DNA of 64,000 nucleotides from Candidatus Multivorans sp. (GCA_965247095.1 OZ251997.1:2944001-3008000), one strand, 5' to 3'; counted from the stretch's first letter, positions 1-13,464 are shown. Made by a program: numbers and translations. Notes: generated from the letters alone by a model not told the origin.

Positions 1-88
1 ACCGTTGGGAGCCCCGGTGGGCGGCACGTCGGGCGAACACGCTCTAGGGTCAGGAGTCGTTCCGGATGGCAGTGGCATCAGGTTTGGC

Positions 89-2158
89 ATGGTTGGGCTG
101 ACGAAGGAGGCCATAGGCGCGGCCGCGTGCCCTTCGTTCAGACCGCCGCACGGAGTCGATGGGATGATCGATGCGGCCAAGCGTTGCCTGCTGAAGCAGC
201 AGAACCCGGATGGCCACTGGTGCGGCGAACTGGAGGGCGACACGATCCTGGAGTCCGAGTACGTGCTGCTGCTGTACTTTCTGGGCCGGGGGACCGATCC
301 GCAGACATCCAAGTGCTGCCAGCGAATCCGCGGCCAACAACTGAAGAGCGGTGGCTGGTCGATCTACCCGGGCGGTGGGACGGATGTTAGTGCTTCGGTC
401 AAGGCGTATCTGTGCCTGAAGCTCGACGGGGACGATCCGGAAGCGGCCCACATGCTGGCCGCGCGACGCGCCATCTGCTGCGCGGGCGGACTTCAGGCCT
501 GTAACTCGTTCACGAAGCTCTATCTGTCGATCTTCGGCCTGTGGAGTTGGCGGCGGGCGCCATCGGTGCCGCCCGAGATCGTCCTGCTGCCGCGCTGGTT
601 CTACTTCAACCTGTACGAGATGTCTTCCTGGTCACGGGCGATCCTCGTGCCCCTGTCGGTGATCTGGGCGCTGAAGCCCAGCGCGCCGCTTGCAGTTGGC
701 CTGGACGAGTTGCACACCAGCGTGTTGCCCAGCCGTCGCCGGCTGACCGCTTTCGAGCGGGGCTGGTCTGTTGTTTTCCGCGCAGTGGACCTGCTGATCA
801 AGTCTGTCGAGGACGTCGGCCCAGTCGCTCCCTGGCGACGCCGCGCACTCAAAGCGGCCGAGCGGTGGTTGGCTGCACGGATCGGAGAATCCGGCGGCCT
901 TGGGGCTATCTTCCCGGCGGTCGTCAACGCGGTCATCGCCCTGCGATGCCTTGGCTACGACGAGGATCATCCCCTCGTGGCCAGTCAACTGCGCGAACTC
1001 GAGAGGTTTGGGATCGAAGAGGAAGGCGAACTCCGTATACAGCCTTGCTTCCCGCCGGTTTGGGACACGGCGCTGTCGGCGAACGCTCTTCTGGCAGCGG
1101 GCGAGGACGCCTACAGTGACCCGATGCAGGACAGCCTGTGTTGGCTGCTCGACCGAGAAGTGACGGTCGCCGGGGACTGGCAGCACAAGAGTCTGCAGAC
1201 AGCTCCCGGCGGCTGGTTCTTCGAGTACCGGAATGAATCCTACCCGGACTGCGACGATACGTCGGAGATCCTGTTCCTGCTCGCTCGCCTCCACGGTCGG
1301 GACGCGGAGACGGAGGCCAGGCGGCGGGCCGCGGCAGCCCGGGGGTTGCGCTGGCTGCTGGGCCTGCAAAACCCGGACGGCGGGTGGGCGGCCTTCGACC
1401 GCCGCTGCGACAAGAAGGTCCTCACCCTCATTCCGTTCGCCGACCACAACGCGATGATCGATCCCAGCACGTCGGATATCACCGCGCGCGCGATCGTGGC
1501 CCTGCTGGCGCACGGCCACCCGGTCTCGAATCCACCACTCCGGCGGGCGACGGCTTTCCTGCTCCGAGAGCAGGAGGCCGACAGCTGTTGGTACGGCCGC
1601 TGGGGGGCGAACTACATCTATGGCACGTGGCTGGCGTTGAGCGCTCTTCGGCGGATCGCCGACGGCCTCGAGGCGGACTTGGTTGGCGCCGGCGCAGACG
1701 GGAGCAAGAATGGCGCTTCCCGGTTGATGAGCCAGCGCTTCGTGAATCGGCTAGCCGGCGCCATTCAGCGCGGACGTGACTGGCTGCTCAGTGTGCAGAA
1801 CGGGGACGGAGGCTGGGGTGAGTCTCTGAACTCCTACGACGACCCGCGCACCCGCGGTCAAGGCTCAAGTACGGCCTCCCAGACGGCCTGGGCCATGCTC
1901 GGTGTCATGGCGGCTTCCGAGCCGCAGCTGGCGGGCGGCGGCGCCGGTCGCGTCCCTCGGGCGCTGGAACGAGGCGTGTCCTTCCTTTCGGAGAGGCAGC
2001 GGCAGGATGGTTCGTGGTATGACCGGGAATGGACCGGCACCGGCTTTCCCCGCGTCTTCTATCTCCGGTACCACCTCTACGCTCAGTACTTCCCCCTTGA
2101 GGCGTTGGCCGCCTACCGCCGCCTCGGCCTGGCGGATTGGTCGGGGCCGGTGAACTGA
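89..2158 (+). CDS. shc: Squalene-hopene cyclase
   Basis: ORF 5..2158; catalytic YPDCDDT (DxDD), several QW repeats (QNPDGHW, QNPDGGW, QNGDGGWGE, QRQDGSW), WYGRWGANYIYGT, TGTGFPRVFYLRYH. Start uncertain (ATG 89 or 164). Confidence 0.97.
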   Translation: MVGLTKEAIGAAACPSFRPPHGVDGMIDAAKRCLLKQQNPDGHWCGELEGDTILESEYVLLLYFLGRGTDPQTSKCCQRIRGQQLKSGGWSIYPGGGTDVSASVKAYLCLKLDGDDPEAAHMLAARRAICCAGGLQACNSFTKLYLSIFGLWSWRRAPSVPPEIVLLPRWFYFNLYEMSSWSRAILVPLSVIWALKPSAPLAVGLDELHTSVLPSRRRLTAFERGWSVVFRAVDLLIKSVEDVGPVAPWRRRALKAAERWLAARIGESGGLGAIFPAVVNAVIALRCLGYDEDHPLVASQLRELERFGIEEEGELRIQPCFPPVWDTALSANALLAAGEDAYSDPMQDSLCWLLDREVTVAGDWQHKSLQTAPGGWFFEYRNESYPDCDDTSEILFLLARLHGRDAETEARRRAAAARGLRWLLGLQNPDGGWAAFDRRCDKKVLTLIPFADHNAMIDPSTSDITARAIVALLAHGHPVSNPPLRRATAFLLREQEADSCWYGRWGANYIYGTWLALSALRRIADGLEADLVGAGADGSKNGASRLMSQRFVNRLAGAIQRGRDWLLSVQNGDGGWGESLNSYDDPRTRGQGSSTASQTAWAMLGVMAASEPQLAGGGAGRVPRALERGVSFLSERQRQDGSWYDREWTGTGFPRVFYLRYHLYAQYFPLEALAAYRRLGLADWSGPVN

Positions 2159-2173
2159 GAACGGCGCCGAACA

Positions 2174-3175
2174 ATGCGAACCCCACTCCATATGGTGACG
2201 GACAACGTCAAGCACCAGGTGCGCAACGCCCTGGCGGGCAACCGCCGCTATCCCTTCGTCCTCATGCTGGAGCCCCTGTATACCTGCAACCTGGCCTGTA
2301 TCGGCTGCGCGGTGGAACGCCATACCGGCAAGTTGAAGGATCGTCTGCCGGTGTCAGATTGTCTCGACGCGGTCGATGTGACCGCGGCTCCTGTGGTTTC
2401 GATCTGCGGCGGCGAGCCGACGGTCTACCCCGAACTTCCGGAGCTGATCGAGGGCATCATCGCCCGGCGTCGGCATATCTACCTTTGCACCAACGCGTTG
2501 CTCCTGGACACCAAGGTCTTCGACCGTGTCGCGCCGAACAAGCGGTTGACGCTGAACATCCATCTGGATGGCATGAGGGAGACCCACGACTACGTCTGCG
2601 CTCGCGAGGGCGTGTTCGACAAAGCGGTCGAAATGCTCAGGACGGCCAAGGAACTCGGTTACCACGTCACCACCAACACGACGGTGTTCAAGGAGACGAA
2701 GATCGATGAGGTCGAAGAGCTATGCCGGTTTCTGCGAGATCTCGGCGTCGACGGCATCCTGATCTCGCCGGGCTACCAGTACCAGTCAGTGGGCCGGGAC
2801 ATCTTCCTGAGTCGCCAGGATACCGAGCGGAAGTTCAAGCGCATCCTCGAGATCGCGGACGGTTACAAGCTGACCTCGACCCCGATGTTCCTGGAGTTTG
2901 CCGCCGGTCTCAGGGACTACTCCTGTTCACCGTGGAGCACCGTGACCCGCACGCCCATGGGTTGGAAGGGACCCTGCTACCTGATCGGCAAGCGCTACTA
3001 CCCGACGTATCAGGAGTTCTGGGAAGAGACGGATTGGAGCTACTGGGAGTCGCGTCAGGACCCGCTATGTCGTAACTGTGCGATGCACTCGGGCTTCGAA
3101 GCATCGGTCGTGCGCGAGATCCACAAGAGCCCACGCGACGCAGTGCGTTTGGCTGCATGGTACGTGACCGGCTGA
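2174..3175 (+). CDS. hpnH: Hopanoid radical SAM adenosyl-hopane synthase HpnH
   Basis: YPFVLMLEPLYTCNLACIGC (CxxxCxxC), SICGGEP, C-terminal CxPW...PCYL...CRNCAMH; adjacent to shc. Confidence 0.93.
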   Translation: MRTPLHMVTDNVKHQVRNALAGNRRYPFVLMLEPLYTCNLACIGCAVERHTGKLKDRLPVSDCLDAVDVTAAPVVSICGGEPTVYPELPELIEGIIARRRHIYLCTNALLLDTKVFDRVAPNKRLTLNIHLDGMRETHDYVCAREGVFDKAVEMLRTAKELGYHVTTNTTVFKETKIDEVEELCRFLRDLGVDGILISPGYQYQSVGRDIFLSRQDTERKFKRILEIADGYKLTSTPMFLEFAAGLRDYSCSPWSTVTRTPMGWKGPCYLIGKRYYPTYQEFWEETDWSYWESRQDPLCRNCAMHSGFEASVVREIHKSPRDAVRLAAWYVTG

Positions 3176-3227
3176 GCGATCGACTGCGCCGCCACTCGGG
3201 GTTTCCAGTCCGCGTCGTGCGCTCTCA

Positions 3228-4220
3228 GTGACGGTCCTGGTCACCGGCGGCACCGGCTTCGTCGGCGCGCACGTCGTCCGGGCGCTGCTCGCCCGCAGGG
3301 ACGACGTTCGTTGCTTGGTAAGAGCCGCCTCAGACTGCGCCAATCTCGAGGGCCTGGACGTGCAATTGGTCGAGGGCGATCTGCGGGCCAGGGCAAGCCT
3401 CGACGCGGCCTGCGGAGACTGCGAACAGGTGTACCACTGCGCTGCGGACTATCGGCTGTACGTCCGTGACCCCAACCAACTCTACGCCTCGAATGTCGAC
3501 GGAACACGGAACTTGCTGGCCGCCGCAGCGAAGTCCGGCGCCCGGCGCATTGTCTACACGAGCTCGGTCGGCGCCCTCGGGTTGGAACCCGGCGGCCAGC
3601 CGGCGACCGAGGCCACGCCAGCCACCGAGGCGTCCATGGTCGGGCATTACAAGCGAAGCAAGTACCTCGCCGAGCGCGTCGCCGAACGAGCCGCGAGGGA
3701 CGGTGTGCCCGTGGTCATCGTCAACCCCTCTACACCAGTCGGCGAGCTGGACATCAAACCGACGCCGACTGGACGGATCGTGGTCGACTTTCTGAACCGC
3801 CGCATGCCGGCCTACGTTGACACGGGACTGAATTTGATCGATGTCCGCGATGTCGCCCACGGTCACCTGCTGGCGGCCGAGCGTGGCCGCGTGGGTGAGA
3901 AGTACATCCTCGGGCACCGAAACTTCACCCTGCGGGAGTTGTTGCACCTCCTGGCCGAGATCACCGGCCTCAGGGCGCCGCGTTTGCGGCTGCCGCATTG
4001 GCTACCGCTCGTCTTCGCCGCTGCTGGTACCGGCTGGGCGGAGGTTACCGGAGGGGAACCGCGGGTTTCGCTCGAGAGCGCGCGCATGGCCCGGCGCCGG
4101 ATGTTCTTCGACGCCGCCAAGGCGGTTCGAGAGTTGGGGCTGCCCCAAACGCCAGTCGTCAACGCGCTGGAGCGGGCGGTCGGATGGTTCGAGGCGAACG
4201 GGTACGTGCGGAAGCCGTGA
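3228..4220 (+). CDS. hpnA: Hopanoid-associated NAD-dependent epimerase/dehydratase HpnA
   Basis: VTGGTGFVG, HCAADYRL, YKRSK, VNPSTPVG..DIKPTPTG; in hopanoid cluster. Confidence 0.92.
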   Translation: MTVLVTGGTGFVGAHVVRALLARRDDVRCLVRAASDCANLEGLDVQLVEGDLRARASLDAACGDCEQVYHCAADYRLYVRDPNQLYASNVDGTRNLLAAAAKSGARRIVYTSSVGALGLEPGGQPATEATPATEASMVGHYKRSKYLAERVAERAARDGVPVVIVNPSTPVGELDIKPTPTGRIVVDFLNRRMPAYVDTGLNLIDVRDVAHGHLLAAERGRVGEKYILGHRNFTLRELLHLLAEITGLRAPRLRLPHWLPLVFAAAGTGWAEVTGGEPRVSLESARMARRRMFFDAAKAVRELGLPQTPVVNALERAVGWFEANGYVRKP

Positions 4221-4272
4221 CGAGATCGGCGACTGGACTGGGGTCACATTGGGCGGCGTGCCCGGGGCGGCC

Positions 4273-5034
4273 ATGACGGCCATGGGACGTTCCGGTGCCG
4301 GCGCCCGAACCGTCTACCTCGCTGCGATGAGGTTCGAGGTTGCGGCCTTGCTCAGACGCCTCGAGGACGCGCGCCGCGTTCCCGGGCCGGGGGGATCGCC
4401 CGCTGTGGTGGGGCGTATTGGCGGCGCCGACGTGGTGATCGCCGTATCCGGCGTCGGCGCGCGCCGTGCCCGAGCGACGGCCGACTGGTGTGTCCGTCTG
4501 GCGGCGCGCGACACGTGTCGGCAGGCGGTGTGGATCGGTGTCGCCGGCGCCCTGTCGCCCGATCTTGCGGTCGGCGACCTGGTGGCGGCCGAGAGCGTCG
4601 TGGCAGAGGACGGCTCCACCGGTCTTGACCTGGATGCGGACTTGGCCGCCCAGCTTGCGACTCGGGGCTGCGTCCTCGGCCGGTTGGTCACCGTGCCCGG
4701 CCTCGTGGTCCGAGCCGAAGAGAAGGCGGCGCTTTGGCGTCGGACGGGAAGCGTGCCGCTGACCGCAGTGGATATGGAGACCTGGGAGGCGGCGCGGCTG
4801 TTTCAAGCTGCCGGTGTCCGTTTCGCTGCGGTGCGAGCGATCAGTGACACGGCGGCGGAGAATCTGCCAGCGGTGCTCGAAGCGGCGATGCGGTCCGATG
4901 GCAGGTTGAACCGGAGCTTGATCGCCCGCCGCGCATTGCTGCAGCCGGCAAGTTGGGCGGCGCTCGGCCGGCTGCGCCGTGCGGCGGCTGCTTGCGCCGA
5001 ACCGCTTGCCGCGGCCGCGGCTTCGCTCGCGTGA
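4273..5034 (+). CDS. hpnG: Hopanoid-associated nucleoside phosphorylase (MTA/SAH nucleosidase family)
   Basis: 3' part of ORF 3841..5034: SGVG, GVAGAL, AVDMET, VRAISD; follows hpnH/hpnA. Start set at ATG 4273. Confidence 0.8.
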   Translation: MTAMGRSGAGARTVYLAAMRFEVAALLRRLEDARRVPGPGGSPAVVGRIGGADVVIAVSGVGARRARATADWCVRLAARDTCRQAVWIGVAGALSPDLAVGDLVAAESVVAEDGSTGLDLDADLAAQLATRGCVLGRLVTVPGLVVRAEEKAALWRRTGSVPLTAVDMETWEAARLFQAAGVRFAAVRAISDTAAENLPAVLEAAMRSDGRLNRSLIARRALLQPASWAALGRLRRAAAACAEPLAAAAASLA

Positions 5035-5147
5035 TGCCATCCACTCCCTCCTCTGGCGTCGATCGCCGGCGACGCTGGCAGCCCACCAAGGAGAGGTACC
5101 TAAGGTCGTTGCGCTCAAGGTGTTGCGGTAGACTGACCGGATGATCT

Positions 5148-6209
5148 TTGGCCTCCCCTCGTAGCGTGAGCACCCGGCCCCTGTTGGCAGCCGCGGAGGG
5201 AGAGCGCGACCGCAAGGCTGAGCACATCCGGCTGGCGCTTGATCGGCGCATGCAGGTCGAGCGGAGCTACTTCGACGACTACCGGTTCGAGCATCGGGCG
5301 CTGCCCGAGATCGACTTCGATGATGTGAGGATCGGCGCCGAGTTCCTGGGGCGGGAGCTGAAGGCGCCGCTGCTCATTTCGTGCATGACCGGGGGCACGG
5401 GGGTTGCGGAGCAGATCAACCGGCGTCTGGCGGAGGCGGCCGAGGCGGGGCGCGTTGCTCTGGGAGTCGGGTCGCAGCGCAAGGCGATCGACGATCCGGA
5501 GACGGCGGCGACGTTCCGGGTTCGGGAGTTCGCGCCGAACGTGCCGATCCTGGCCAACCTGGGCGCGGTGCAACTGAACTACGGCTACGGCATCGACGAG
5601 TGCCGGGCGGCGGTCGACATGGTCGAAGCGGACGCCCTGGTGCTGCACTTGAACGCGCTGCAGGAGGCGTTGCAGCCGGAGGGGCAGTTGAACTTCCGGG
5701 GCCTGCTGCCGAAGATTGCGCGTGTGGTCGAGGCGATGGAGGTGCCGGTGATCGTCAAGGAGATCGGTAGCGGCATCTCCGGGACGGTCGGCCGGGAGTT
5801 GGCGAACGTTGGCGTCCGGATCCTGGATACGGCGGGTGTGGGCGGTACGAGCTGGGCGCGGATCGAGGCGGCGCGGGCCGACGAGATCGTGCTCGGCGAG
5901 CGCTTCGCCGACTGGGGGCTGCCGACGCCGGAGTCGATCCGCCAGTTGGCCCAGGTGCCCGGTGTGCAGGTGATCGGCAGCGGCGGCCTCCGGTCGGGCA
6001 TCGACGCCGCGAAGGCGCTGGCGCTCGGCGCCGACATCGCCGGCATGGCCTTCCCGTTCCTGGAGGCTGCGAACGCGTCGACCGCCGCGGTGATCGATCG
6101 GATCGATCGCACAGCCTTTGAGCTGCGCATCTCCATGTTCTGCACCGGGGCTGTGGATGTCGCGGCATTGCGCCGGGCGCCCTTGCTGCGCGGGAGTGGC
6201 GATGGCTGA
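5148..6209 (+). CDS. fni: Type 2 (FMN-dependent) isopentenyl-diphosphate isomerase
   Basis: RKAEHI, MTGG, GVGSQR, NLGAVQL, HLNALQE..QPEG, VKEIGSG, GGTSW, SGGLR. Start TTG 5148 or GTG 5166. Confidence 0.96.
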   Translation: MASPRSVSTRPLLAAAEGERDRKAEHIRLALDRRMQVERSYFDDYRFEHRALPEIDFDDVRIGAEFLGRELKAPLLISCMTGGTGVAEQINRRLAEAAEAGRVALGVGSQRKAIDDPETAATFRVREFAPNVPILANLGAVQLNYGYGIDECRAAVDMVEADALVLHLNALQEALQPEGQLNFRGLLPKIARVVEAMEVPVIVKEIGSGISGTVGRELANVGVRILDTAGVGGTSWARIEAARADEIVLGERFADWGLPTPESIRQLAQVPGVQVIGSGGLRSGIDAAKALALGADIAGMAFPFLEAANASTAAVIDRIDRTAFELRISMFCTGAVDVAALRRAPLLRGSGDG

Positions 6210-7461
6210 TCGACTGAGTCCTGAGCTCGAGACGGCGGCGGCCGAGATGGCCGGCGCAGAACGCGGATTCCACCGGTTGCCGCAGGATCTCGACGCGACG
6301 GCAAAAGCCGCGGTTCGGCGTCGGGCCCTGGACCTCGCGAGCGGCAGCGGGCCGCTCAGCGCCATCGGCAGCTACACCCTGGACGACGAACGAGCGTCCA
6401 GTCAGCACTGCGAGAACTTCATCGGCGCCGCCCAGGTGCCGATGGGCGTGGCCGGCCCGGTCCTGGTGCGGGGCAGCGAGATCGACGGCACGGTCTTTGT
6501 ACCGATGGCGACCACCGAGGGCGCCCTGCTCGCGAGCGTGAACCGCGGCTGCCGCGCGATCACCGCGGCCGGCGGCGTCACCGTGTTCGTCGAGGACATC
6601 GGCATGACCCGGGCGCCGGTCTTCCGTACCAGCGGGATCAAGGAGAGCCGGCGCCTGCTCGACTGGCTGCAGGCGAACGAGGAGACGGTCCGCGCCAAGG
6701 CCCAGGAGACGAGCCGCTATCTGAAGCTGCTCGAGATCCGCCCTTCGGTGGTCGGCAGCACGGTCTTCTTGCGGTTCCGCTTCGCCACCGGCGACGCGAT
6801 GGGCATGAACATGGTGACGATCGCCGTCGACCGCGTCGTGTCCGAACTCATCGAACCGGAGACCGGCGTCGAGTGCGTCGCTCTCTCCGGCAACTACTGC
6901 GTCGACAAGAAGCCCTCCGCGGTCAACTACCAGCTCGGACGCGGTAAGCGCATCCACGCCGAAGTCGTACTCGACGAGTTGACCGTGCGCAAGGTGCTCA
7001 AGTCGGAGGCGAAGGCGCTCCAGGATGTCGCCTACCGCAAGAACCTTCTCGGTTCGGTGGCGGCCGGCGCGCTCGCCTTCAACGCCCAGTTCGCCAACGT
7101 GCTCGCGGCGGTGTTCGTGGCCTGCGGCCAGGACGTCGCCCACGTGGTCGAGGGTGCGATGGGCGTTGCGTCGTTCGAGGCTCGGGACAACGGATCGGTC
7201 TACGCTTCGGTCTACATGCCGGACGTGCCGTTGGCCGCGATCGGCGGCGGCACGGGTCTGGACACGCAGCGCGAGGCGCTCGAGGTGATGGGCGTGAGGC
7301 CCGACCGGGATCGGCCCGGTGCGGCGGTGCGGCGCCTGGCCGAAATCGTCGGCGCGGTCGTCCTGGCCGGCGAACTCTCGCTGACCGCGGCGTTCACCTC
7401 GCGCGATCTGGCGCGGGCGCACGAGCGGCTGGCCCGCTCTGGCCCGGCGAACGAGGACTGA
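6202..7461 (+). CDS. hmgA: HMG-CoA reductase, class I (NADPH) type
   Basis: CENFIG, PMATTEGALLAS, TGDAMGMNM, SGNYCVDKKP, GQDVAHVVE, GGGT, C-terminal catalytic His (LARAHERL). ATG 6202 overlaps the fni end. Confidence 0.96.
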   Translation: MADRLSPELETAAAEMAGAERGFHRLPQDLDATAKAAVRRRALDLASGSGPLSAIGSYTLDDERASSQHCENFIGAAQVPMGVAGPVLVRGSEIDGTVFVPMATTEGALLASVNRGCRAITAAGGVTVFVEDIGMTRAPVFRTSGIKESRRLLDWLQANEETVRAKAQETSRYLKLLEIRPSVVGSTVFLRFRFATGDAMGMNMVTIAVDRVVSELIEPETGVECVALSGNYCVDKKPSAVNYQLGRGKRIHAEVVLDELTVRKVLKSEAKALQDVAYRKNLLGSVAAGALAFNAQFANVLAAVFVACGQDVAHVVEGAMGVASFEARDNGSVYASVYMPDVPLAAIGGGTGLDTQREALEVMGVRPDRDRPGAAVRRLAEIVGAVVLAGELSLTAAFTSRDLARAHERLARSGPANED

Positions 7462-7470
7462 TCGCCGGCC

Positions 7471-8571
7471 ATGGCCGACGCCACATCGGTGCGGCTGAGC
7501 GTGCCCGGGAAGGTGATCCTGATGGGCGAGCACGCCGCCGTCTACGGGCGACCGGCGGTGGTGGCTGCTGTTGATCGTCGGCTTGAGGTGGAAGCGTGTC
7601 TGGGGCCGGTCAGCCGCGGGTTGGTGCGCGGCCGGGTTCGTCTCGACCTGCCGGACATCGATGTCCTGGAGGAGCATTCCTGGTCGGAAGTGGAGGAGTT
7701 CGCGAACCGGGCACGCCGGCGCTGGCGCGCGTTCCAGGCCGGGGAAGAGTCCTTCCGGGCGGATCGTGATCGCAACGCCCTGGTCCGCATCGCGGTCGGT
7801 GAGGCGCTGGCATCGTTGGCGCCGCCGGCGTTGGCCAGCTTGCAGAAGCGGTCGCTCGAACTGCGGCTGCGGTCGGCGATCCCGGTCGGCGCCGGGCTGG
7901 GCAGTTCGGCGGCGGCCGCGGTTGGCGTGGTCGCTGCGGTGCGGGCAGTGGCGGGTGGCTTCGACGGAGACGAACTCGCGGCGATCGAGGGCGCTGCGCT
8001 CGAAGTCGAACGGCGTCAGCACGGGTTTCCGTCGGGGATCGACAGCGGTACGGTCCTGCGTGGCGGCGTCCTCCTCGTGCGACGCGAGGGCGAAGAGCTG
8101 CGCTGCGATGACCTGCCGCAGCGGGATTGGCTGCGATGCGGCACCCTGATCGTCGATAGCGGAACGCCCGGTCAGACGACGGGCGCCGTGGTCACGACCG
8201 TTCGCATGCGCTACGAACGGGATCCCGATGGGGTTGCCGAGGTGCTCGACCGCATCGGCGCGGCGGCGGAGGCCTTTCGCGAGGCCCTCGTCGCGGACAG
8301 GGAGCCTCAGGCGGCGGCTGCGATCGCGGCGGGGCACCGCGGCCTGGTTGATCTCGGCGTCGTACCGCCGGCGATCGCGACGCGGATCGGCCGGGTCGAG
8401 GCTGCGGGCGGCGCCGCGAAGGTCTCGGGCGCCGGCGCGTTCGAGGGCGAGTCGGCGGGAGCGCTGGTCTGCATGCTCGGGGGACGGGACGTGGGTACGG
8501 TCGAAGGCCTGTCGGATCTCGCGCCGGTCGATGCGGCCATAGGCGCCGAGGGTCTGCGGTTCGAGGACTGA
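7471..8571 (+). CDS. mvk: Mevalonate kinase (GHMP family)
   Basis: PGKVILMGEHAAVYG, PVGAGLGSSAA, HGFPSGID, KVSGAG. Confidence 0.9.
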   Translation: MADATSVRLSVPGKVILMGEHAAVYGRPAVVAAVDRRLEVEACLGPVSRGLVRGRVRLDLPDIDVLEEHSWSEVEEFANRARRRWRAFQAGEESFRADRDRNALVRIAVGEALASLAPPALASLQKRSLELRLRSAIPVGAGLGSSAAAAVGVVAAVRAVAGGFDGDELAAIEGAALEVERRQHGFPSGIDSGTVLRGGVLLVRREGEELRCDDLPQRDWLRCGTLIVDSGTPGQTTGAVVTTVRMRYERDPDGVAEVLDRIGAAAEAFREALVADREPQAAAAIAAGHRGLVDLGVVPPAIATRIGRVEAAGGAAKVSGAGAFEGESAGALVCMLGGRDVGTVEGLSDLAPVDAAIGAEGLRFED

Positions 8572-8648
8572 CCTTGGGAGCCGAATGCGGCCGACCTGCC
8601 GGCGTTTCCAAGGCGGCTGTGCGGCGGCTGTAGGCTCGGCAGCGAATC

Positions 8649-9713
8649 ATGAGTTCCACCTTCGAACCGGCGCGCGAGCCGGGCCCGGTGACCGCGGAGG
8701 CGCCGTCGAACATCGCCTTCATCAAGTACTGGGGCGCCCGCGATCTCGAAGGCGATTCTGAGGGTCCGGTGCCGTTCAACCGATCCCTGTCGATGACCCT
8801 CGACGCGTGCCGTTCCATCTGTTCGGCGTCGCCGCTCCCGGACGGCAGGGACGACGAGATCTCGTGGCTGGACAAGCCGGCCGGCGACCGGCCGGGCGCC
8901 CCGGTCGAGCCGCCCCCGGCCTTCGTCGAGCGCACGAAGCGGCACCTCGACCGGCTGCGCGAGTGGTCGCGTCAGACCGCGGCGCCGTACGCAGGCGGGT
9001 TCCGGATCGCGACGTACAACACCTTCCCGACGGCTGCCGGCATCGCCTCGTCGGCTTCCGGTTTCACGGCCTTGACGCTTGCCGTCGCGACCTGCATGGG
9101 CTTCGACCTCGCGCCGCGAACGCTCTCCGGGCTGTCGCGGAGCAGCGGGTCGGGTTCGGCCGCGCGTTCCGCCTGGGGCGGCTACGTGGAGTGGCCGGAC
9201 GCGGACAGCAAGGCGGCAGTTCAGATCCTGGACGAGCGGGCCTGGGTGCTGTGCGATCTGGTCGCCGTCGTCGAGACCGGGGCGAAGAAGGTGTCGTCGC
9301 GGGACGGCCACCGGCGGGCCGAGAGCAGTCCATACTTCGCGCCGCGTCTGGCCGCGCTCGACGGAAGGCTGGAGCGGGTGCGCGCCGCGTTGTGTGGCCG
9401 CGACTTCGAGGCGCTCGGCGACGCGGTCGAGGAGGAGGGGATCGAGCTGCACCTGATCGCGATGTCCTCCCGGCCGCCGGTCTACTACTGGTCGCCGGGG
9501 ACGATCGAGGTGCTGGCGGCGGTCCGCGGCTTGCGGGCCGACGGCGTTGCCGCCTACGCCACGATGGACGCCGGCGCGAACGTCCACGTGATCTGCCAAC
9601 CGGCCGATGCGCCGCAGGTGGCGGACCGGTTGGAGGCGCTCGACAGCGTCCAGTACGTCCTGCGCGACCGCACCGGGGGCCCGCCGGTGTGGCGGAGCGG
9701 CGCCGAACTCTGA
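8649..9713 (+). CDS. mvaD: MvaD-family decarboxylase, probably mevalonate-5-phosphate decarboxylase
   Basis: APSNIAFIKYWG, FPTAAGIASSASG, SGSGSAARS, TMDAGANVH. Substrate inferred from the adjacent IPK and absence of PMK. Confidence 0.9.
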   Translation: MSSTFEPAREPGPVTAEAPSNIAFIKYWGARDLEGDSEGPVPFNRSLSMTLDACRSICSASPLPDGRDDEISWLDKPAGDRPGAPVEPPPAFVERTKRHLDRLREWSRQTAAPYAGGFRIATYNTFPTAAGIASSASGFTALTLAVATCMGFDLAPRTLSGLSRSSGSGSAARSAWGGYVEWPDADSKAAVQILDERAWVLCDLVAVVETGAKKVSSRDGHRRAESSPYFAPRLAALDGRLERVRAALCGRDFEALGDAVEEEGIELHLIAMSSRPPVYYWSPGTIEVLAAVRGLRADGVAAYATMDAGANVHVICQPADAPQVADRLEALDSVQYVLRDRTGGPPVWRSGAEL

Positions 9714-9715
9714 TC

Positions 9716-10603
9716 ATGGCCGCCGGCTCGAGGCAGGAAGAGACCGATGCGCGCGGTCGGTTGAGCGTGACCCTGGTCAAGCTCGGCGGCAGCCTGATCA
9801 CCGACAAGACGAAACCGCGCACCGTCGAGAGGGAGCATTTGGGTCGCCTAGCGGCCGAGATCGCCGCCGGGTGGTCGGGCGGCGGCCTGATCGTCGGCCA
9901 CGGCAGCGGCTCCTTCGGTCACCCGGAGGCGCGGGCGGCCGGCCTGGTCGGAGGCGCTGGCGGTCGGCGGCTCGACTCGCCGGCGGACCGCATGGGCATC
10001 GCCCGCACGCAGTCCGCTGCACAGGCTCTGCACCGGACGATCGTCTCCAGTCTGATCGATGCCGGGGTGCCGGCGTACTCCCAGCCGCCGTCCGGATTCC
10101 TGGTCGCGGAGGACGGCAAGCCGCACGGTGATCCCCCCGCGCCCCTGGCCGAAGCTCTGCGGTCGGGCCTGGTGCCGGTAACCATGGGTGACGTGGCGAT
10201 CGACCGCCGGCGCGGGGCGGCGATCGTCTCGACCGAGACGGTGTTCGAGTTCCTGGCCGGCGCGCTGCCTGCGCTCGGGATCGAGGTGCGGCGCGCCTTG
10301 TGGCTGGGTGTTGTGGCGGGCGTCCTGGATGACGCGGGACGGCTGATTCCGCGCATCGACGAGACGAACATCGAGGCCGCTTCGGCGGCCGCCGGCGGTT
10401 CGGCGGCGGTCGACGTGACCGGCGGCATGGAGCACCGCCTGGTCACCGCATGGCGTTTGGCCCGGGGCGGCGTGGAGTCGCTGATTCTCGACGGCCGCGA
10501 GCCGGGCCTGCTGGAATCCGTGCTTCGGCATCCGGGACGGGCGGCGGAAGTCGCCGGTACACTCGTCCGTTCCAGCGAACGACCCTGGAGATCGCCTACG
10601 TAG
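9716..10603 (+). CDS. ipk: Isopentenyl phosphate kinase (amino-acid-kinase superfamily)
   Basis: 3' part of ORF 8807..10603: VKLGGSLITDK, HGSGSFGH, GLVPVTMGD, STE, DVTGGM; ATG 2 nt after the mvaD stop. Confidence 0.9.
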   Translation: MAAGSRQEETDARGRLSVTLVKLGGSLITDKTKPRTVEREHLGRLAAEIAAGWSGGGLIVGHGSGSFGHPEARAAGLVGGAGGRRLDSPADRMGIARTQSAAQALHRTIVSSLIDAGVPAYSQPPSGFLVAEDGKPHGDPPAPLAEALRSGLVPVTMGDVAIDRRRGAAIVSTETVFEFLAGALPALGIEVRRALWLGVVAGVLDDAGRLIPRIDETNIEAASAAAGGSAAVDVTGGMEHRLVTAWRLARGGVESLILDGREPGLLESVLRHPGRAAEVAGTLVRSSERPWRSPT

Positions 10604-10641
10604 GCACGCGCGGCCGCCACGCCACGTGCCGTTCCGACATC

Positions 10642-11322
10642 ATGAACATGCGCGCGAGCAGCACAGTCGAGGACTACCTGAAGTGCATCTTCCGGGCCGA
10701 GCAGGAGGCGCGGCAGAGCGGGCAGGACCTCGTGCCCATGGGCCGGATCGCGGCTCTCCTGGAGGTGGCGCCGGCTTCGGTCACCGCGATGATGAAGACC
10801 CTGGCCGAGTCCGGTCTGGTCGCCTACGAGCCCTACAGCGGTGTGCGGCTGGCGCCCGCGGGCCGCAAGCTGGCGGCGCACGTCCTCAGGCGGCACCGGC
10901 TGGTCGAGCTGTTTCTGGTCAACAAGATGGGGTTCGACTGGAGCGAGGTTCACTCCGAAGCCGAACTGCTCGAGCACGCGGTTTCCGAACGGATGATCGA
11001 GCGGATGGACGAGATGCTGGGCCATCCGTCAGTCGACCCGCACGGCGATCCGATCCCCAGGGCAGACGGCCACATCGAGATCGTGGATCATCCCAGCCTT
11101 CTGAAGTGCGCGCTGAACTGCACGGTCGAGGTCGTGCGGGTCACCGATCAGGACGCCGAGTTCCTGCGCTTCGCCGAGCGCGAGGGTCTGACGCCGGGGA
11201 AGTCGGTCGAGGTGGCGGCGCGGGACGAGACCGCGGGCAGCGTCGCGGTGATCTCCGGGACGCGACAGCTCAGCCTGGGCTTCCCGGCCGCCTCCAAGGT
11301 GCTGGTGCGAGAGGCGCCGTGA
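10642..11322 (+). CDS. DtxR/MntR family metal-dependent regulator with C-terminal FeoA-like domain
   Basis: TVEDYLK, RRHRLVELFL, HSEAELLEHA, DPHGDPIP. Confidence 0.92.
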   Translation: MNMRASSTVEDYLKCIFRAEQEARQSGQDLVPMGRIAALLEVAPASVTAMMKTLAESGLVAYEPYSGVRLAPAGRKLAAHVLRRHRLVELFLVNKMGFDWSEVHSEAELLEHAVSERMIERMDEMLGHPSVDPHGDPIPRADGHIEIVDHPSLLKCALNCTVEVVRVTDQDAEFLRFAEREGLTPGKSVEVAARDETAGSVAVISGTRQLSLGFPAASKVLVREAP

Positions 11323-11323
11323 G

Positions 11324-11414
11324 CTAGCGCGGCAGAACTCCCAGAGGCCGGCGCTCCGCGCCGGATGCGGGCAAGATGCCCGCGTTCCCAGGTCGGATCG
11401 TTCTGCCGCGCTAG
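11324..11414. repeat. CTAG-bounded palindromic repeat (REP/MITE-like), copy with perfect 15-bp terminal inverted repeats
   Basis: ctagcgcggcagaac...gttctgccgcgctag, internal hairpins; homologous to 47908-48073, 51676-51766 and 40214-40267. Confidence 0.85.
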
Positions 11415-11929
11415 GCCGCCGTCTCGCCGCCGGTCGGGGTGACCACGAACAGCGGATCGCCCCGGTCGACGGTCTGACCGACCTCGACCAGGAGCTTGTC
11501 CAGGCGGCCATCGATCTCCGACTGGATCTCGTTCTCCATCTTCATCGCCTCGAGCACGAGGACACCCTGGCCGGAGGCCACTTCCTCGCCTTCGCCGGCG
11601 AGCACCGCGGTCACGCGGCCGGGCATGTAGGCCGTGGCCTCGAACACGCCGTCCTCGGGCTGCTGTGCGGCGGCGGCGAAGTCCCGCGACCGGGGGTCGA
11701 TCACCCGCAGTTCGGATCCGTCGACGACGTAGACGCCCTTGCCGAGGGCGCGCACACTCGCGGTCGCCTGGCGTCCGTTAACGATCACGCTCAGCATGTC
11801 CGGCCGGCCCACCGTCGCGGCGTCGACCCGGTACTCGCGGCCGTCGACGGCAATGGTCCAGTTGCCGTCCGCTTCGGCCTGGGCCTCGACCAGAACTTCA
11901 CGGTCGGCGCTGGCGACGATCAGTTCCAA
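11411..11929 (-). CDS. Biotin carboxyl carrier protein
   Basis: LEAMKMENEI biotinylation motif; overlaps the biotin carboxylase end. Confidence 0.92.
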   Translation of the reverse strand: MELIVASADREVLVEAQAEADGNWTIAVDGREYRVDAATVGRPDMLSVIVNGRQATASVRALGKGVYVVDGSELRVIDPRSRDFAAAAQQPEDGVFEATAYMPGRVTAVLAGEGEEVASGQGVLVLEAMKMENEIQSEIDGRLDKLLVEVGQTVDRGDPLFVVTPTGGETAA

Positions 11930-13464
11930 GTCGTTCCCCGCCTGCTGTCGCGGCGCGCGGCGAGCTGCCAGTTGGAGCGCGTCGCGTCGCTCTTGGACGT
12001 CGCCGCGGCGCCGTTCGCGTGGTTGCGCCCGAGGTGGGCTAGGACCGCTGCCAGCACCGGCAGGTCGCCTTCAAGCGTGTCGCCGTTCGCGGTGGGCGCC
12101 CGGAGGTCGCCGTTCTCCAGCTTGCGGTCGAGCATAGAGATGTCCATGTTGCCGGCGAGGAAGTCCTCGTCTTCGAGCAGCAACTCGAACAGGGCCAGGT
12201 TGGTGCGGATGCCCTCGACCCGGGTTTCGGCCAGGGCCCGCCGCAACCGCGCCAGGGCGTGGGCGCGGTCGCGGCCCCAGACGATCAGCTTGGCGAGCAG
12301 GGGGTCGTAGTGGATCGTGACCTCGGCGCCCTCGTAGACGCCGCAGTCGTTGCGGACCCCCGGACCTTCGGGCAGGCGGAGCAGCTCGATCCTCCCGGGC
12401 GACGGAGCGAAGCCCCGGAACGGATCCTCCGCGTAGAGGCGGACCTCGACCGCATGGCCGCGGGGTTCGATGCCGCTGCGTAGCGCTTCCGGCAGCGCCT
12501 CGCCGGCGGCAATGTCCAGTTGCGCGTCCACGATGTCGATGCCCGTGACCGCTTCGGTCACCGGGTGCTCGACCTGGATTCTGGTGTTCATCTCGAGAAA
12601 GTAGAACTCGCCGTCGGGGTCGAGAAGGAACTCGACCGTGCCGGCGCCGACGTAGTTCACGGTTTCGGCGGCGCGCACCGCGGCCGCGCCCATGCGCCGG
12701 CGCAGGTCCGGGTCCACCGCCGGCGACGGCGCTTCCTCGACGACTTTCTGGTGGCGTCGTTGAAGCGAGCACTCCCGTTCCCCGAGAGAGACGACCCGCC
12801 CGTGCCGGTCGCCCAGGATCTGGATCTCGACGTGCCGGGGACGCTCGACGAAGCGCTCGATGTAGACGGACGCGTCGTTGAAGCTGGCGCCGGCTTCGGA
12901 GGAGGCGCCCCGGAACGCGGCCGCGAGTTCCTCCTCTGCGCGCACCAGGCGCATGCCCTTGCCGCCGCCTCCGGCCGAGGCCTTGAGCATCACCGGATAG
13001 CCGATCTCCCTGGCGGCGGCTCGGGCTGCGGCGGCGTCGGCCAGGGGCTCGGTACCGCCCGGCACGATCGGAACTCCGGCCGCCGTCATCAGGCGCCGGC
13101 TCTCGATCTTCGACCCCATGGCCGCGATCGCCTGCGAGGACGGGCCGATGAAGGTCACGCCGCGCTCCTCGCAGCGGCGGGCGAAGTCGGCGTTCTCGGA
13201 CAGGAAGCCGTAGCCGGGGTGAATCGCGTCGGCACCGATGTCTGTGGCCAGGTCGACGATCTTCCCGGCCAGCAGATAGCTCTCGATGGACGGCGCCGGA
13301 CCGATGCAGTGGGCCTCGTCGGCCATCTGGGTCGCCAGGCCGTCTCGATCCGCCTCGGAGTAGATGGCGACGGAGACGATGCCGCGCTCCCGCAGCGCCC
13401 TGATGATGCGCACCGCGATCTCGCCGCGGTTCGCGACCAACACCTTCTGCAACCTGTTCGTCAT
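11920..13464 (-). CDS. accC: Acyl-CoA carboxylase biotin carboxylase subunit
   Basis: LVANRGEIA, HPGYGFLSEN, GGGGKGMR, RECSLQRRHQK, EMNTRIQVEH. Confidence 0.95.
   Translation of the reverse strand: MTNRLQKVLVANRGEIAVRIIRALRERGIVSVAIYSEADRDGLATQMADEAHCIGPAPSIESYLLAGKIVDLATDIGADAIHPGYGFLSENADFARRCEERGVTFIGPSSQAIAAMGSKIESRRLMTAAGVPIVPGGTEPLADAAAARAAAREIGYPVMLKASAGGGGKGMRLVRAEEELAAAFRGASSEAGASFNDASVYIERFVERPRHVEIQILGDRHGRVVSLGERECSLQRRHQKVVEEAPSPAVDPDLRRRMGAAAVRAAETVNYVGAGTVEFLLDPDGEFYFLEMNTRIQVEHPVTEAVTGIDIVDAQLDIAAGEALPEALRSGIEPRGHAVEVRLYAEDPFRGFAPSPGRIELLRLPEGPGVRNDCGVYEGAEVTIHYDPLLAKLIVWGRDRAHALARLRRALAETRVEGIRTNLALFELLLEDEDFLAGNMDISMLDRKLENGDLRAPTANGDTLEGDLPVLAAVLAHLGRNHANGAAATSKSDATRSNWQLAARRDSRRGTTWN

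What the first reader, a model, noticed from the sequence alone, without database searches (positions are those of the whole stretch)
89..10603. Hopanoid cluster joined to an archaeal-style (phosphomevalonate decarboxylase + IPK) mevalonate operon
Seen: shc-hpnH-hpnA-hpnG is followed on the same strand by fni-hmgA(class I)-mvk-mvaD-like-ipk, with no phosphomevalonate kinase. Established: MVK -> mevalonate-5-P decarboxylase -> IP kinase is the alternative mevalonate route characterised in Haloferax volcanii and Roseiflexus castenholzii, and bacterial hopanoid producers mostly use the MEP pathway. Inference: a probable acidobacterium feeds extended-hopanoid synthesis from a dedicated haloarchaeal/Chloroflexi-type mevalonate module. 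I do not recognise this arrangement as described. It would matter for reading hopanoid isotope signatures. This is the best candidate for a new system in the window.
Basis: partly seen in the sequence, partly recalled or inferred. Interest (0 to 1): 0.85.

Follow-up and report, generated by a model that had tools for sequence, protein, structure and literature searches.

The report
Hopanoid genes beside alternative mevalonate operon
An acidobacterium carries four hopanoid-lipid genes directly upstream of a five-gene operon that most likely makes isoprenoid building blocks by the "decarboxylate first, phosphorylate second" mevalonate route, so far described in bacteria only for Chloroflexi; the operon looks like the lineage's general precursor supply, not a line reserved for hopanoids.

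Summary
On the + strand at 89-10603 lie shc, hpnH, hpnA, an hpnG-like gene, a 113-nt spacer, then fni (IDI-2), class I hmgA, mvk, an MvaD homologue and ipk.

The complete 4.6-Mb genome has no recognisable phosphomevalonate kinase. MvaD is closest to the solved Anaerolinea phosphomevalonate decarboxylase. At the two positions mutated in 6n0z it has Ala and His, where classical enzymes have Lys and Met. So MVK -> PMD -> IPK is well supported in silico but has not been assayed.

"Dedicated to hopanoids" is not supported. MvaD and IPK lie side by side in 38 of 41 related genomes, but shc occurs in only 24.

In the 20 other shc-bearing genomes of the genus, shc is never next to the operon. Here the genus-type hpn block sits between moaA and fni, and contigs from two studies bridge that join. 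The same adjacency recurs in other families and in Gemmatimonadota, often with a polyprenyl synthase in between.

A 2017 paper already noted shc, hpnH and mevalonate genes in an SD22 acidobacterial genome.

Verdict: real, moderately interesting, a new member of a known kind.

The parts
89..2158 (+). shc, squalene-hopene cyclase
   Evidence: TIGR01507 612.4 bits (cut-off 431.1); Pfam SQHop_cyclase_N and _C. The HMM match is split in two stretches by an insert of about 35 residues.
2174..3175 (+). hpnH, radical-SAM adenosylhopane synthase
   Evidence: TIGR03470 377.1 bits (cut-off 225); Radical_SAM + DUF3463. Starts 15 nt after the shc stop.
3228..4220 (+). hpnA, hopanoid-associated NAD-dependent epimerase-family protein
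   Evidence: TIGR03466 473.4 bits (cut-off 367.65).
4273..5034 (+). hpnG-like nucleosidase/phosphorylase
   Evidence: TIGR03468 104.8 bits, below its cut-off of 187.1; Pfam PNP_UDP_1 81.3 bits. The ATG at 4273 was chosen from the sequence. A homologue holds the same position after hpnA in relatives.
5035..5147 (.). 113-nt spacer between the hopanoid block and the mevalonate operon
   Evidence: Sequence read. No promoter-like or terminator-like site, no Rfam match, and a fold no better than shuffles (z 0.25). The sequence of a co-occurring strain diverges from about window -38 to 5164 (X1 record 4).
5148..6209 (+). fni, type 2 IPP isomerase
   Evidence: TIGR02151 390.1 bits (cut-off 281.3). The TTG start is uncertain; the HMM match begins at residue 22.
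6202..7461 (+). hmgA, class I HMG-CoA reductase
   Evidence: Pfam PF00368 381.7 bits; TIGR00533 432.6 (cut-off 441.8); class II model 33.9 bits. Best PDB hit 6hr7 at 350.8 bits, followed by plant and human class I enzymes. Its ATG overlaps the fni stop by 8 nt.
7471..8571 (+). mvk, mevalonate kinase (divergent)
   Evidence: TIGR00549 142.3 bits (cut-off 163.05). All 11 of 11 PDB hits are mevalonate kinases. Starts 9 nt after the hmgA stop.
8649..9713 (+). mvaD, predicted phosphomevalonate (mevalonate-5-phosphate) decarboxylase
   Evidence: Best PDB hit 6n0x/6n0y at 190.8 bits, against 152.2 for the best classical MDD. Motifs YWGARD and DGH, where classical enzymes have YWGK and DGM. The same pattern holds across 80 homologues.
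9716..10603 (+). ipk, isopentenyl phosphate kinase
   Evidence: NF040647 134.5 bits (cut-off 120). The six best PDB hits are isopentenyl phosphate kinases, and the HGxGSFGH motif is kept. Its ATG lies 2 nt after the mvaD stop. IPK is adjacent to MvaD in 38 of 38 related genomes that have both.

Best explanation
Two functional modules lie head to tail on one strand.

(1) A hopanoid module. Shc cyclises squalene to hopene/diplopterol. HpnH adds the adenosyl side chain. The HpnG-like nucleosidase removes adenine to give ribosylhopane. HpnA has an unknown role.

(2) A tightly packed lower mevalonate operon with these steps:
- class I HMGR: HMG-CoA to mevalonate;
- MVK: to mevalonate-5-phosphate;
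- the MvaD homologue, acting as an ATP-dependent phosphomevalonate decarboxylase: to isopentenyl phosphate;
- IPK: to IPP;
- IDI-2: IPP to and from DMAPP.

HMG-CoA synthase is encoded elsewhere and no phosphomevalonate kinase exists.

Shown here: gene identities, order, spacing, absence of a recognisable PMK, the PMD-like residues, and conservation of the operon. Inferred: the substrate preference of MvaD and all fluxes.

The operon is the vertically inherited, general IPP supply of this Thermoanaerobaculia lineage. The hopanoid block is of the genus's own type. In this genome it sits in a variable slot between moaA and fni. That recreates an adjacency also found in other families of the order and in Gemmatimonadota. 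This suggests that co-localisation is favoured (co-regulation or co-inheritance of a major isoprenoid sink with its supply). It does not show a dedicated supply line.
For: Gene identities.

Tight spacing: an 8-nt fni/hmgA overlap, 9 nt before mvk, 2 nt between mvaD and ipk.

No PMK in a single-contig genome that is 98.96% complete:
- TIGR01220 best 16.7 bits, NF040957 best 17.1 bits (on mvk itself), PF04275 none.
- All 6 GHMP_kinases_N genes are accounted for: ispE, thrB, galK, an HddA-like kinase in a sugar-nucleotide context, mvk and mvaD.

MvaD:
- Nearest solved structure is 6n0x/6n0y, which PMC9254496 (passages read) identifies as the only solved PMD, from Anaerolinea thermophila.
- The engineered entry 6n0z differs from it at N->K and H->M. 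At those two positions the window has Ala and His, while E. faecalis and S. aureus MDDs have Lys and Met.
- PMC11052028 (passages read) describes the Chloroflexota type as lacking the conserved Lys of DMD and keeping the conserved His of PMD.
- Census of 80 homologues: His in 80 of 80; Lys in 2 of 80.

Conservation:
- All five genes are collinear within 8 kb in 54 of 80 loci.
- MvaD and IPK are adjacent in 38 of 41 related genomes, against 24 of 41 with shc.
- Genus relatives have moaA-fni with no hpn block between them; their hpn blocks lie elsewhere.
- The window's HpnH, Shc and HpnA fall inside the genus clade (SH-aLRT 100, 99, 97; quick trees).

The join is real: a 5368-nt contig with 0 differences spans both ends of the block in X1 and X3, and a 588-nt contig from another study spans hpnG|fni.

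Recurrent adjacency: hpnH lies upstream of fni in 8 of the 46 loci that have at least 3.5 kb of upstream sequence, and hpnG in 10 of 46. L025 and G028 show it as well. A polyprenyl synthase lies in between in L026, L061 and L035.
Against: - No enzyme was assayed.
- MvaD passes NCBIfam's classical MDD model (195.5 vs 171.35) and fails the haloarchaeal MvaD model (111 vs 475).
- It keeps the SSRDG stretch seen in E. faecalis MDD, where the Anaerolinea PMD has GSTQG. Of the six Dellas et al. Table 4 positions, only Lys21 is clearly changed.
- Divergent MVK and PMK were overlooked in Bacteroidetes until 2017 (PMC6107057, passages read), so a cryptic PMK cannot be excluded.
- The TIGR01220 control did not exceed its cut-off in any of the 14 control genomes, Lactococcus lactis included.
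- The genome also keeps dxr, ispDF, ispE, ispG and ispH. A second, DXS-less route may therefore be active, and the split of fluxes is unknown.
- L075 shows the same moaA-shc...fni order, which could mean the arrangement is ancestral rather than re-formed.
- The trees are quick or FastTree runs without bootstraps.
Confidence: 0.75

Rival explanations
1. One reading: the mevalonate operon is a dedicated supply line for extended hopanoids, and other isoprenoids come from the (DXS-less) MEP genes.
For: - Direct adjacency on one strand with only a 113-nt spacer.
- The same adjacency in other families and in Gemmatimonadota, often with a polyprenyl synthase in between.
- The genome keeps dxr, ispDF, ispE, ispG and ispH.
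- One relative (G029) has Dxr and IspG, with no DXS and no MvaD/IPK. That hints that a DXS-less MEP route can work on its own.
Against: - MvaD and IPK are present in 38 of 41 related genomes but shc in only 24 of 41. Four genus genomes have the operon and no shc match.
- Eleven operon-bearing genomes show neither Dxr nor IspG: G022, G025, G026, G027, G030, G031, G034, G037-G040. In those the operon must serve all isoprenoids.
- In the 20 other shc-bearing genus genomes, shc is not near mvaD: 6 have it on the same contig more than 190 kb away, and 14 on other contigs.
Confidence: 0.12
2. The pathway is the classical one. MvaD is a diphosphomevalonate decarboxylase, an unrecognised kinase makes mevalonate-5-diphosphate, and IPK only salvages isopentenyl phosphate.
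For: - MvaD exceeds the cut-off of the classical MDD model TIGR01240.
- It keeps Ser-Ser-Arg-Asp-Gly as in E. faecalis MDD.
- Cryptic PMKs have a precedent in Bacteroidetes (PMC6107057, passages read).
- PMC11052028 speaks of dual specificity in Chloroflexota enzymes.
Against: - No PMK of any of the three known types, and no unassigned GHMP kinase outside a sugar context, in a complete genome.
- The Lys that classical enzymes have in YWGK is Ala here, and non-Lys in 77 of 80 homologues (1 has a gap there).
- ipk starts 2 nt after the mvaD stop and is adjacent to mvaD in 38 of 38 genomes that have both.
Confidence: 0.08
3. The hpn-mevalonate join is an assembly artefact, because no other genome of the genus shows it.
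For: - It is unique within the 25 genus genomes searched.
- The slot between moaA and fni varies between strains.
Against: - Short-read contigs of X1 and X3 (one sample, possibly the source) cover L116 1376-6743 with no differences, spanning both ends of the block.
- A 588-nt contig from a different study (X8, depth 2) spans hpnG|fni with no differences.
- L075 and G028 have the same order.
Confidence: 0.02

Closest known systems
MPD/PMD + IPK mevalonate route of Chloroflexi (Roseiflexus castenholzii, Dellas et al. 2013, PMC3857490; Anaerolinea thermophila PMD structure 6n0x)
   Same: - MVK, an MDD homologue without the diphosphate-binding Lys, and an IPK; no PMK.
- The window's MvaD has its best PDB match to 6n0x and keeps the His that the 6n0z mutant replaces.
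   Different: - The genes here form one operon with fni and class I hmgA. PMC6107057 states that Chloroflexi are the exception that does not cluster its mevalonate genes.
- The window's clade is separated from the Chloroflexota sequences by a fully supported branch.
- Ala replaces the Asn/Leu of the Chloroflexi enzymes, and the Ser-Arg-Asp stretch is as in classical MDDs.
- No biochemical data exist for this clade.
Haloarchaeal PMD + IPK route (Haloferax volcanii, VanNice et al. 2014, known to me only from the reference lists of PMC9254496 and PMC11052028)
   Same: The same order of reactions and the same enzyme families; class I HMGR and IDI-2 as in archaea.
   Different: The window's MvaD scores only 111 bits on the haloarchaeal MvaD model NF040704, whose cut-off is 475. 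It is therefore not a member of that subfamily.
SD22 acidobacterial genome Mor1 in Sinninghe Damste et al. 2017 (PMC5462960, passages read)
   Same: - An acidobacterium with shc and hpnH, most mevalonate genes, no hpnCDE, and a squalene-synthase-like gene instead.
- The window's genome likewise has a single SQS-like gene and no hpnC/hpnD pair.
   Different: - That paper says Mor1 lacks MEP genes; this genome keeps all of them except dxs.
- The paper does not discuss PMD, IPK or the missing PMK in the passages I read.
- I could not see Figure 7 or the supplements, so I do not know whether it draws the same adjacency.
Hopanoid gene clusters that include precursor-supply genes of the MEP pathway (recalled from memory for Streptomyces and some Proteobacteria; no call)
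   Same: A hopanoid cyclase and side-chain genes placed next to genes that make C5 units or prenyl diphosphates.
   Different: Here the supply genes belong to the mevalonate route in its PMD/IPK form.

Membership tests
PMD/IPK (haloarchaea/Chloroflexi-type) mevalonate pathway | Mevalonate kinase present | tested here: met
   TIGR00549 gives 142.3 bits, below its cut-off of 163, but 11 of 11 PDB hits are mevalonate kinases.
PMD/IPK (haloarchaea/Chloroflexi-type) mevalonate pathway | MDD homologue that lacks the conserved Lys of DMD and keeps the conserved His of PMD (criterion as worded in PMC11052028) | tested here: met
   YWGARD and DGHRR, against YWGK and DGM in E. faecalis and S. aureus MDD. 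His in 80 of 80 and Lys in 2 of 80 homologues.
PMD/IPK (haloarchaea/Chloroflexi-type) mevalonate pathway | The decarboxylase prefers mevalonate-5-phosphate over the diphosphate | not testable with these tools
   Needs enzyme kinetics.
PMD/IPK (haloarchaea/Chloroflexi-type) mevalonate pathway | Isopentenyl phosphate kinase with the IPK-specific active-site His | tested here: met
   NF040647 134.5 bits, above its cut-off of 120. The six best PDB hits are IPKs, and hgsgsfgh aligns with hgggsfgh. That this His is the catalytic one follows from PMC3857490 and from recall of its position.
PMD/IPK (haloarchaea/Chloroflexi-type) mevalonate pathway | No phosphomevalonate kinase in the genome | tested here: met
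   (no match over 17.1 bits) and the census of all 6 GHMP kinases, in a single-contig genome 98.96% complete. Caveat: the control for TIGR01220 was weak.
Haloarchaeal MvaD subfamily (NF040704) | Score over the model's cut-off | tested here: not met
   111 bits against a cut-off of 475.
Classical mevalonate pathway | PMK present, and MDD with the Lys and Met of the diphosphate pocket | tested here: not met
   No PMK; Ala and His at the two positions. MvaD nevertheless passes TIGR01240 (195.5 vs 171.35).
Bacteriohopanepolyol biosynthesis cluster | Squalene-hopene cyclase and HpnH | tested here: met
   TIGR01507 612.4 bits and TIGR03470 377.1 bits, both over their cut-offs.
Bacteriohopanepolyol biosynthesis cluster | HpnG nucleosidase | tested here: inconclusive
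   TIGR03468 104.8 bits, below its cut-off of 187.1. The position after hpnA is conserved in relatives.
Bacteriohopanepolyol biosynthesis cluster | A route to squalene (hpnCDE or squalene synthase) | tested here: inconclusive
   One SQS_PSY gene in the genome (97.3 bits). Its best model is squalene synthase TIGR01559 at 95.7 bits, against a cut-off of 286.75.

The most novel reading that the evidence does not exclude
The hopanoid block, a polyprenyl synthase (in relatives) and the PMD/IPK mevalonate operon form a self-contained, repeatedly re-assembled 'acetyl-CoA to bacteriohopanepolyol' unit in Acidobacteriota and Gemmatimonadota. In genomes such as this one it runs in parallel with a DXS-less MEP pathway fed by an unknown source of deoxyxylulose phosphate. 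Hopanoids and the other isoprenoids of one cell would then come from different C5 routes and carry different isotope signatures.
Probability: 0.12. Interest if true: 0.7.

Novelty: new member of a known kind. Interest (0 to 1): 0.45.

Why it matters
Texts from 2018 to 2024 that I read in passages (PMC6107057, PMC9254496, PMC11052028) name Chloroflexi as the only bacteria with the PMD/IPK route.

Here the same logic appears as a conserved five-gene operon:
- in a Thermoanaerobaculia order, where MvaD and IPK occur in 38 of 41 genomes;
- in about 8% of an even draw of Acidobacteriota, by IPK alone (34 of 401);
- in loci titled Gemmatimonadota, Rhodothermota and Planctomycetota.

If the enzymes behave as predicted, three things follow. 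Database names ('diphosphomevalonate decarboxylase') are wrong for this clade. The distribution of the route in bacteria is wider than stated. Hopanoids from these lineages would carry a mevalonate-type rather than an MEP-type isotope pattern, which matters for compound-specific isotope work on hopanes.

It does not open a new kind of biology. Both the pathway and the hopanoid genes are known, and the link between them rests on position only.

Tried and rejected
- Earlier findings of this scan were not open.
- Thomas et al. 2019, the paper behind 6n0x/6n0z, is not held. The meaning of the two mutated positions therefore rests on the PDB sequences and one sentence of PMC11052028.
- Paper searches that found nothing: 'Candidatus Multivorans' and Thermoanaerobaculia + mevalonate. 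The search mevalonate pathway + Acidobacteria + isopentenyl phosphate kinase gave one unrelated review.
- One search was badly framed. It returned 6,126 community-ecology papers, and none of the 25 listed holds a PMD term, so it says nothing either way.
- Supplements and figures were closed. Figure 7 and Tables S1-S7 of PMC5462960, and the supplementary distribution tables of PMC6107057 (which lists 20 bacterial phyla with some mevalonate enzymes), may already show this operon or this adjacency.
- The promoter/terminator scan of 1-12000 found 0 promoter-like sites and 1 terminator-like site, inside the mntR-like gene. That is fewer than in shuffles.
- No Rfam family matched anywhere in the window.
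- The hpnG-fni spacer folds no better than shuffles.
- Run X5, from another study, covers the flanks (L116 1-1400 and 6708-8500, 0-3 differences) but not the hpn block, and no contig joins across. This cannot be used as evidence of a strain without the block.
Co-transcription is untested.
- I considered a phylogeny of MvaD with characterised anchors (R. castenholzii, H. volcanii, classical MDDs). I could not build it, because no tool returned those sequences as stored proteins. Bit scores against PDB and residue checks stand in for it.
- I considered whether the window's hpn block came by transfer from the lineages that have the adjacency. The trees reject this and place it inside the genus clade.

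Full report
**What is there**

The window is part of a single-contig genome of 4,617,209 bases, 98.96% complete. On the + strand between 89 and 10603 lie nine genes.

| Gene | Coordinates | Main evidence |
|---|---|---|
| shc | 89-2158 | TIGR01507 612.4 bits (cut-off 431.1) |
| hpnH | 2174-3175 | TIGR03470 377.1 |
| hpnA | 3228-4220 | TIGR03466 473.4 |
| hpnG-like | 4273-5034 | TIGR03468 104.8, below cut-off 187.1; Pfam PNP_UDP_1 |
| fni | 5148-6209 | type 2 IPP isomerase, TIGR02151 390.1 |
| hmgA | 6202-7461 | Pfam 381.7; class I model 432.6 vs 441.8; class II model 33.9 |
| mvk | 7471-8571 | TIGR00549 142.3, below cut-off 163 |
| mvaD homologue | 8649-9713 | TIGR01240 195.5, over cut-off 171.35 |
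| ipk | 9716-10603 | NF040647 134.5, over cut-off 120 |

I set the starts from the sequence:
- the hmgA ATG overlaps the fni stop by 8 nt;
- mvk follows hmgA after 9 nt;
- ipk follows mvaD after 2 nt;
- 113 nt separate the hpnG-like gene from fni.

PDB searches agree with the names. All 11 of 11 hits of mvk are mevalonate kinases. hmgA is closest to 6hr7 and then to plant and human class I reductases. The six best hits of ipk are isopentenyl phosphate kinases, with the HGxGSFGH motif kept.

The block is bounded upstream by a gdh-like gene, nudC and moaA. Downstream lie an mntR/dtxR-like regulator and then accB/accC on the other strand.

**Whose genome**

A search with MvaD in named genome records gave best hits at 92% identity to records titled Candidatus Multivorans sp. 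Next came Thermoanaerobaculia and other Acidobacteriota. At 48-56% came Gemmatimonadota, Rhodothermota (Longimonas, Salinivenus) and one Isosphaeraceae record. Chloroflexota followed at 42-47%.

**Is there a phosphomevalonate kinase?**

- The Gram-positive/ERG8 model gave at best 16.7 bits.
- The archaeal model gave 17.1 bits, on mvk itself.
- The animal-type model found nothing.

I therefore listed every gene with a GHMP-kinase N domain. There are six: ispE, thrB, galK, an HddA-like kinase, and the cluster's mvk and mvaD. The HddA-like gene sits beside a dTDP-sugar-isomerase-like gene and an NAD-epimerase gene, which is a sugar context.

So no recognisable PMK exists in a complete genome. A caveat remains: divergent MVK and PMK of Bacteroidetes went unrecognised until 2017 (PMC6107057, passages read).

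**Is MvaD a phosphomevalonate decarboxylase?**

Its best solved relative is 6n0x/6n0y at 190.8 bits. The best classical enzyme, 5v2l, scores 152.2 bits. PMC9254496 (passages read) states that the only solved PMD is that of Anaerolinea thermophila.

The entry 6n0z differs from 6n0x at two residues: YWGN to YWGK and GH to GM. The four enzymes compare as follows.

| Enzyme | First position | Second position |
|---|---|---|
| Window MvaD | YWGA (Ala) | DGH (His) |
| A. thermophila PMD | YWGN (Asn) | GH (His) |
| E. faecalis MDD | YWGK (Lys) | DGM (Met) |
| S. aureus MDD | YWGK (Lys) | YGM (Met) |

PMC11052028 (passages read) words the Chloroflexota signature as lacking the conserved Lys of DMD and keeping the conserved His of PMD. 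Table 4 of PMC3857490 lists Lys21 as conserved in classical enzymes of bacteria, Sulfolobales and eukaryotes.

In an alignment of the window's protein with 79 homologues, the His is present in 80 of 80. The Lys position is Ala in 62, Asn in 5, Val in 4, Thr in 2, Ile in 2, Ser in 1, Gly in 1, Lys in 2 and a gap in 1.

Evidence against:
- The protein passes the classical MDD model and fails the haloarchaeal MvaD model (111 vs 475).
- It keeps Ser-Ser-Arg-Asp-Gly as in E. faecalis MDD, where the Anaerolinea enzyme has Gly-Ser-Thr-Gln-Gly.

Taken with the missing PMK and the ipk gene 2 nt downstream, the PMD reading is the best supported. It remains an inference from sequence.

**The rest of the pathway**

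An HMG-CoA synthase homologue lies about 200 kb away (TIGR01835 253 bits, below its cut-off of 360).

For squalene there is a single SQS_PSY-family gene. Its best model is squalene synthase, at 95.7 bits against a cut-off of 286.75. There is no hpnC/hpnD pair.

**Is the operon a hopanoid-specific supply?**

In 80 loci fetched with MvaD, all five mevalonate genes are collinear within 8 kb in 54. Most of the other 26 are truncated contigs, or Chloroflexota and gammaproteobacterial loci with other contexts.

In 41 genomes (25 of the genus, 16 of other families of the order):
- MvaD and IPK are both present in 38, and always side by side;
- shc is present in 24: 21 of 25 in the genus and 3 of 16 outside it.

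Four genus genomes have the operon and no shc match. Eleven operon-bearing genomes have neither Dxr nor IspG, so there the operon must feed all isoprenoids. This makes it the lineage's general route to IPP.

In an even draw of the phylum, IPK was found in 34 of 401 genomes and 17 of 228 genera. These are concentrated in the window's order and a few families of other classes.

**How did the hopanoid block come to lie here?**

Genus relatives have gdh-nudC-moaA, then 0.1-3 kb of varying content, then fni...ipk-mntR, with no hpn genes (L016-L022, L108-L111). Their shc-hpnH-hpnA-hpnG blocks lie elsewhere:
- on the same contig 190 kb to about 3.6 Mb away in 6 genomes;
- on other contigs in 14.

Quick trees place the window's HpnH, Shc and HpnA inside the genus clade (SH-aLRT 100, 99 and 97). 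They sit apart from the blocks of other lineages that do adjoin the operon. So the block is the genus's own, placed in a variable slot.

The same adjacency occurs outside the genus:
- In L025, L026, L031, L050, L061 and L075 (Acidobacteriota).
- In L035, L036 and L069 (Gemmatimonadota, without hpnA).
- In G028.
- Of the 46 loci with at least 3.5 kb upstream of fni, 8 have hpnH there and 10 have hpnG.
- In L026, L061 and L035 a polyprenyl synthase lies between hpnG and fni.
- L075 even shares moaA upstream of shc, so an ancestral arrangement kept here and lost elsewhere in the genus is not excluded.

**Is the join real?**

Logan contigs of two runs of one sample (X1 and X3, which hold 0.99 of the sampled words and may be the source) include a 5368-nt contig with no differences. 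It covers L116 1376-6743 and spans both moaA|shc and hpnG|fni.

In X1 a second, lower-depth contig joins the same flanks across 2688 other letters. That is a co-occurring strain with different content in the slot.

A run from another study (X8) has a 588-nt contig, with no differences at depth 2, across hpnG|fni.

**The MEP genes**

dxr lies in the window at 57942-59138 on the - strand. An ispDF fusion, ispE, ispG and ispH are also present. DXS is not:
- the best TIGR00204 match is the transketolase;
- DXP_synthase_N finds nothing.

No genome of the genus (0 of 25) and only 3 of 16 others have DXS. Yet Dxr is in 24 of 25 and IspG in 21 of 25 (one of them partial). Two complete genus genomes have lost such genes: G022 lacks both and G003 lacks ispG. 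G029 has Dxr and IspG but neither DXS nor MvaD/IPK.

PMC5462960 (passages read) had already noted missing dxs in six cultured acidobacteria and proposed aceE as a substitute. Whether the DXS-less pathway runs here is open. It is the main reason I cannot fully dismiss separate supply lines.

**Comparison with what is known**

The route works like the Chloroflexi/haloarchaeal PMD + IPK pathway, and the membership features I could test are met. The protein is not a member of the haloarchaeal MvaD subfamily.

Its clade is separated from Chloroflexota sequences by a fully supported branch in a FastTree of 80 sequences. That tree has no classical outgroup.

PMC6107057 (2018), PMC9254496 (2022) and PMC11052028 (2024), read in passages, name Chloroflexi as the only bacteria with this route. 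My searches found no paper describing it in Acidobacteriota.

PMC5462960 (2017) did report an SD22 acidobacterial genome with shc, hpnH, an SQS-like gene and most mevalonate genes. Its Figure 7 legend includes a colour for mevalonate genes. I could not see the figure or any supplement, so part of the arrangement may already be in print.

**Verdict**

The finding is real and correctly read at the level of genes and route. It overreaches on 'dedicated' and on novelty. It is a new member of a known kind of pathway, in a recurrent but not obligatory neighbourhood with hopanoid genes. Interest 0.45.

Noticed in passing
window 57942-59138 (-) and genome-wide: An MEP pathway without its first enzyme. 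dxr (in the window), ispDF, ispE, ispG and ispH are present. DXS is absent here and in all 25 genus genomes searched, while Dxr is kept in 24 and IspG in 21. One relative (G029) has Dxr and IspG but neither DXS nor MvaD/IPK. PMC5462960 noted missing dxs in six cultured acidobacteria. The source of DXP is unexplained.
   Followed up: partly
window -38 to 5164 (L116 1462-6664): The space between moaA and fni is a variable slot. Genus relatives hold 0.1-3 kb of other content there. A co-occurring strain in run X1 has 2688 other letters in place of the 5.2-kb hpn block.
   Followed up: partly
L026:3879-5291 and L061:4111-5484: A conserved ORF of 457-470 residues with no Pfam family lies between hpnG and a polyprenyl synthase in hopanoid-mevalonate clusters of relatives.
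   Followed up: no
L076:5638-6390 and L082 (hpnG-like hit starting at 5695): In two Acidobacteriota loci an hpnG-like nucleosidase gene lies directly upstream of fni, with no shc, hpnH or hpnA in the 5.7 kb before it.
   Followed up: partly
G000:C1:2399988-2400611 (L112:1240-2151, -): This is the only SQS_PSY-family gene of the genome. It is a divergent squalene-synthase-like protein (TIGR01559 95.7 bits, cut-off 286.75). There is no hpnC/hpnD pair.
   Followed up: partly
window 10657-11322 (+): An mntR/dtxR-like regulator follows ipk here, in all genus loci examined, and 1-3 kb downstream in L025, L031, L075 and others.
   Followed up: partly
L090 and L094: Gammaproteobacterial MvaD homologues carry both the Lys of classical enzymes and the His of PMDs. 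L094 has an IPK-like hit next to it.
   Followed up: no
G036 (same order, 94% complete): No match for DXS, Dxr, IspG, MvaD or IPK. Its route to isoprenoid precursors is not apparent.
   Followed up: no
window 89-2158: The Shc match to TIGR01507 is split into two stretches (residues 44-550 and 588-706 of the open frame) by an insert of about 35 residues rich in Gly and Ala.
   Followed up: no
G000:C1 about 3300145-3302139 (L006:985-2979, -): Homoserine kinase forms only the C-terminal half (residues 332-651) of a 664-residue open frame. The N-terminal half was not examined, and the frame may simply be over-extended.
   Followed up: no
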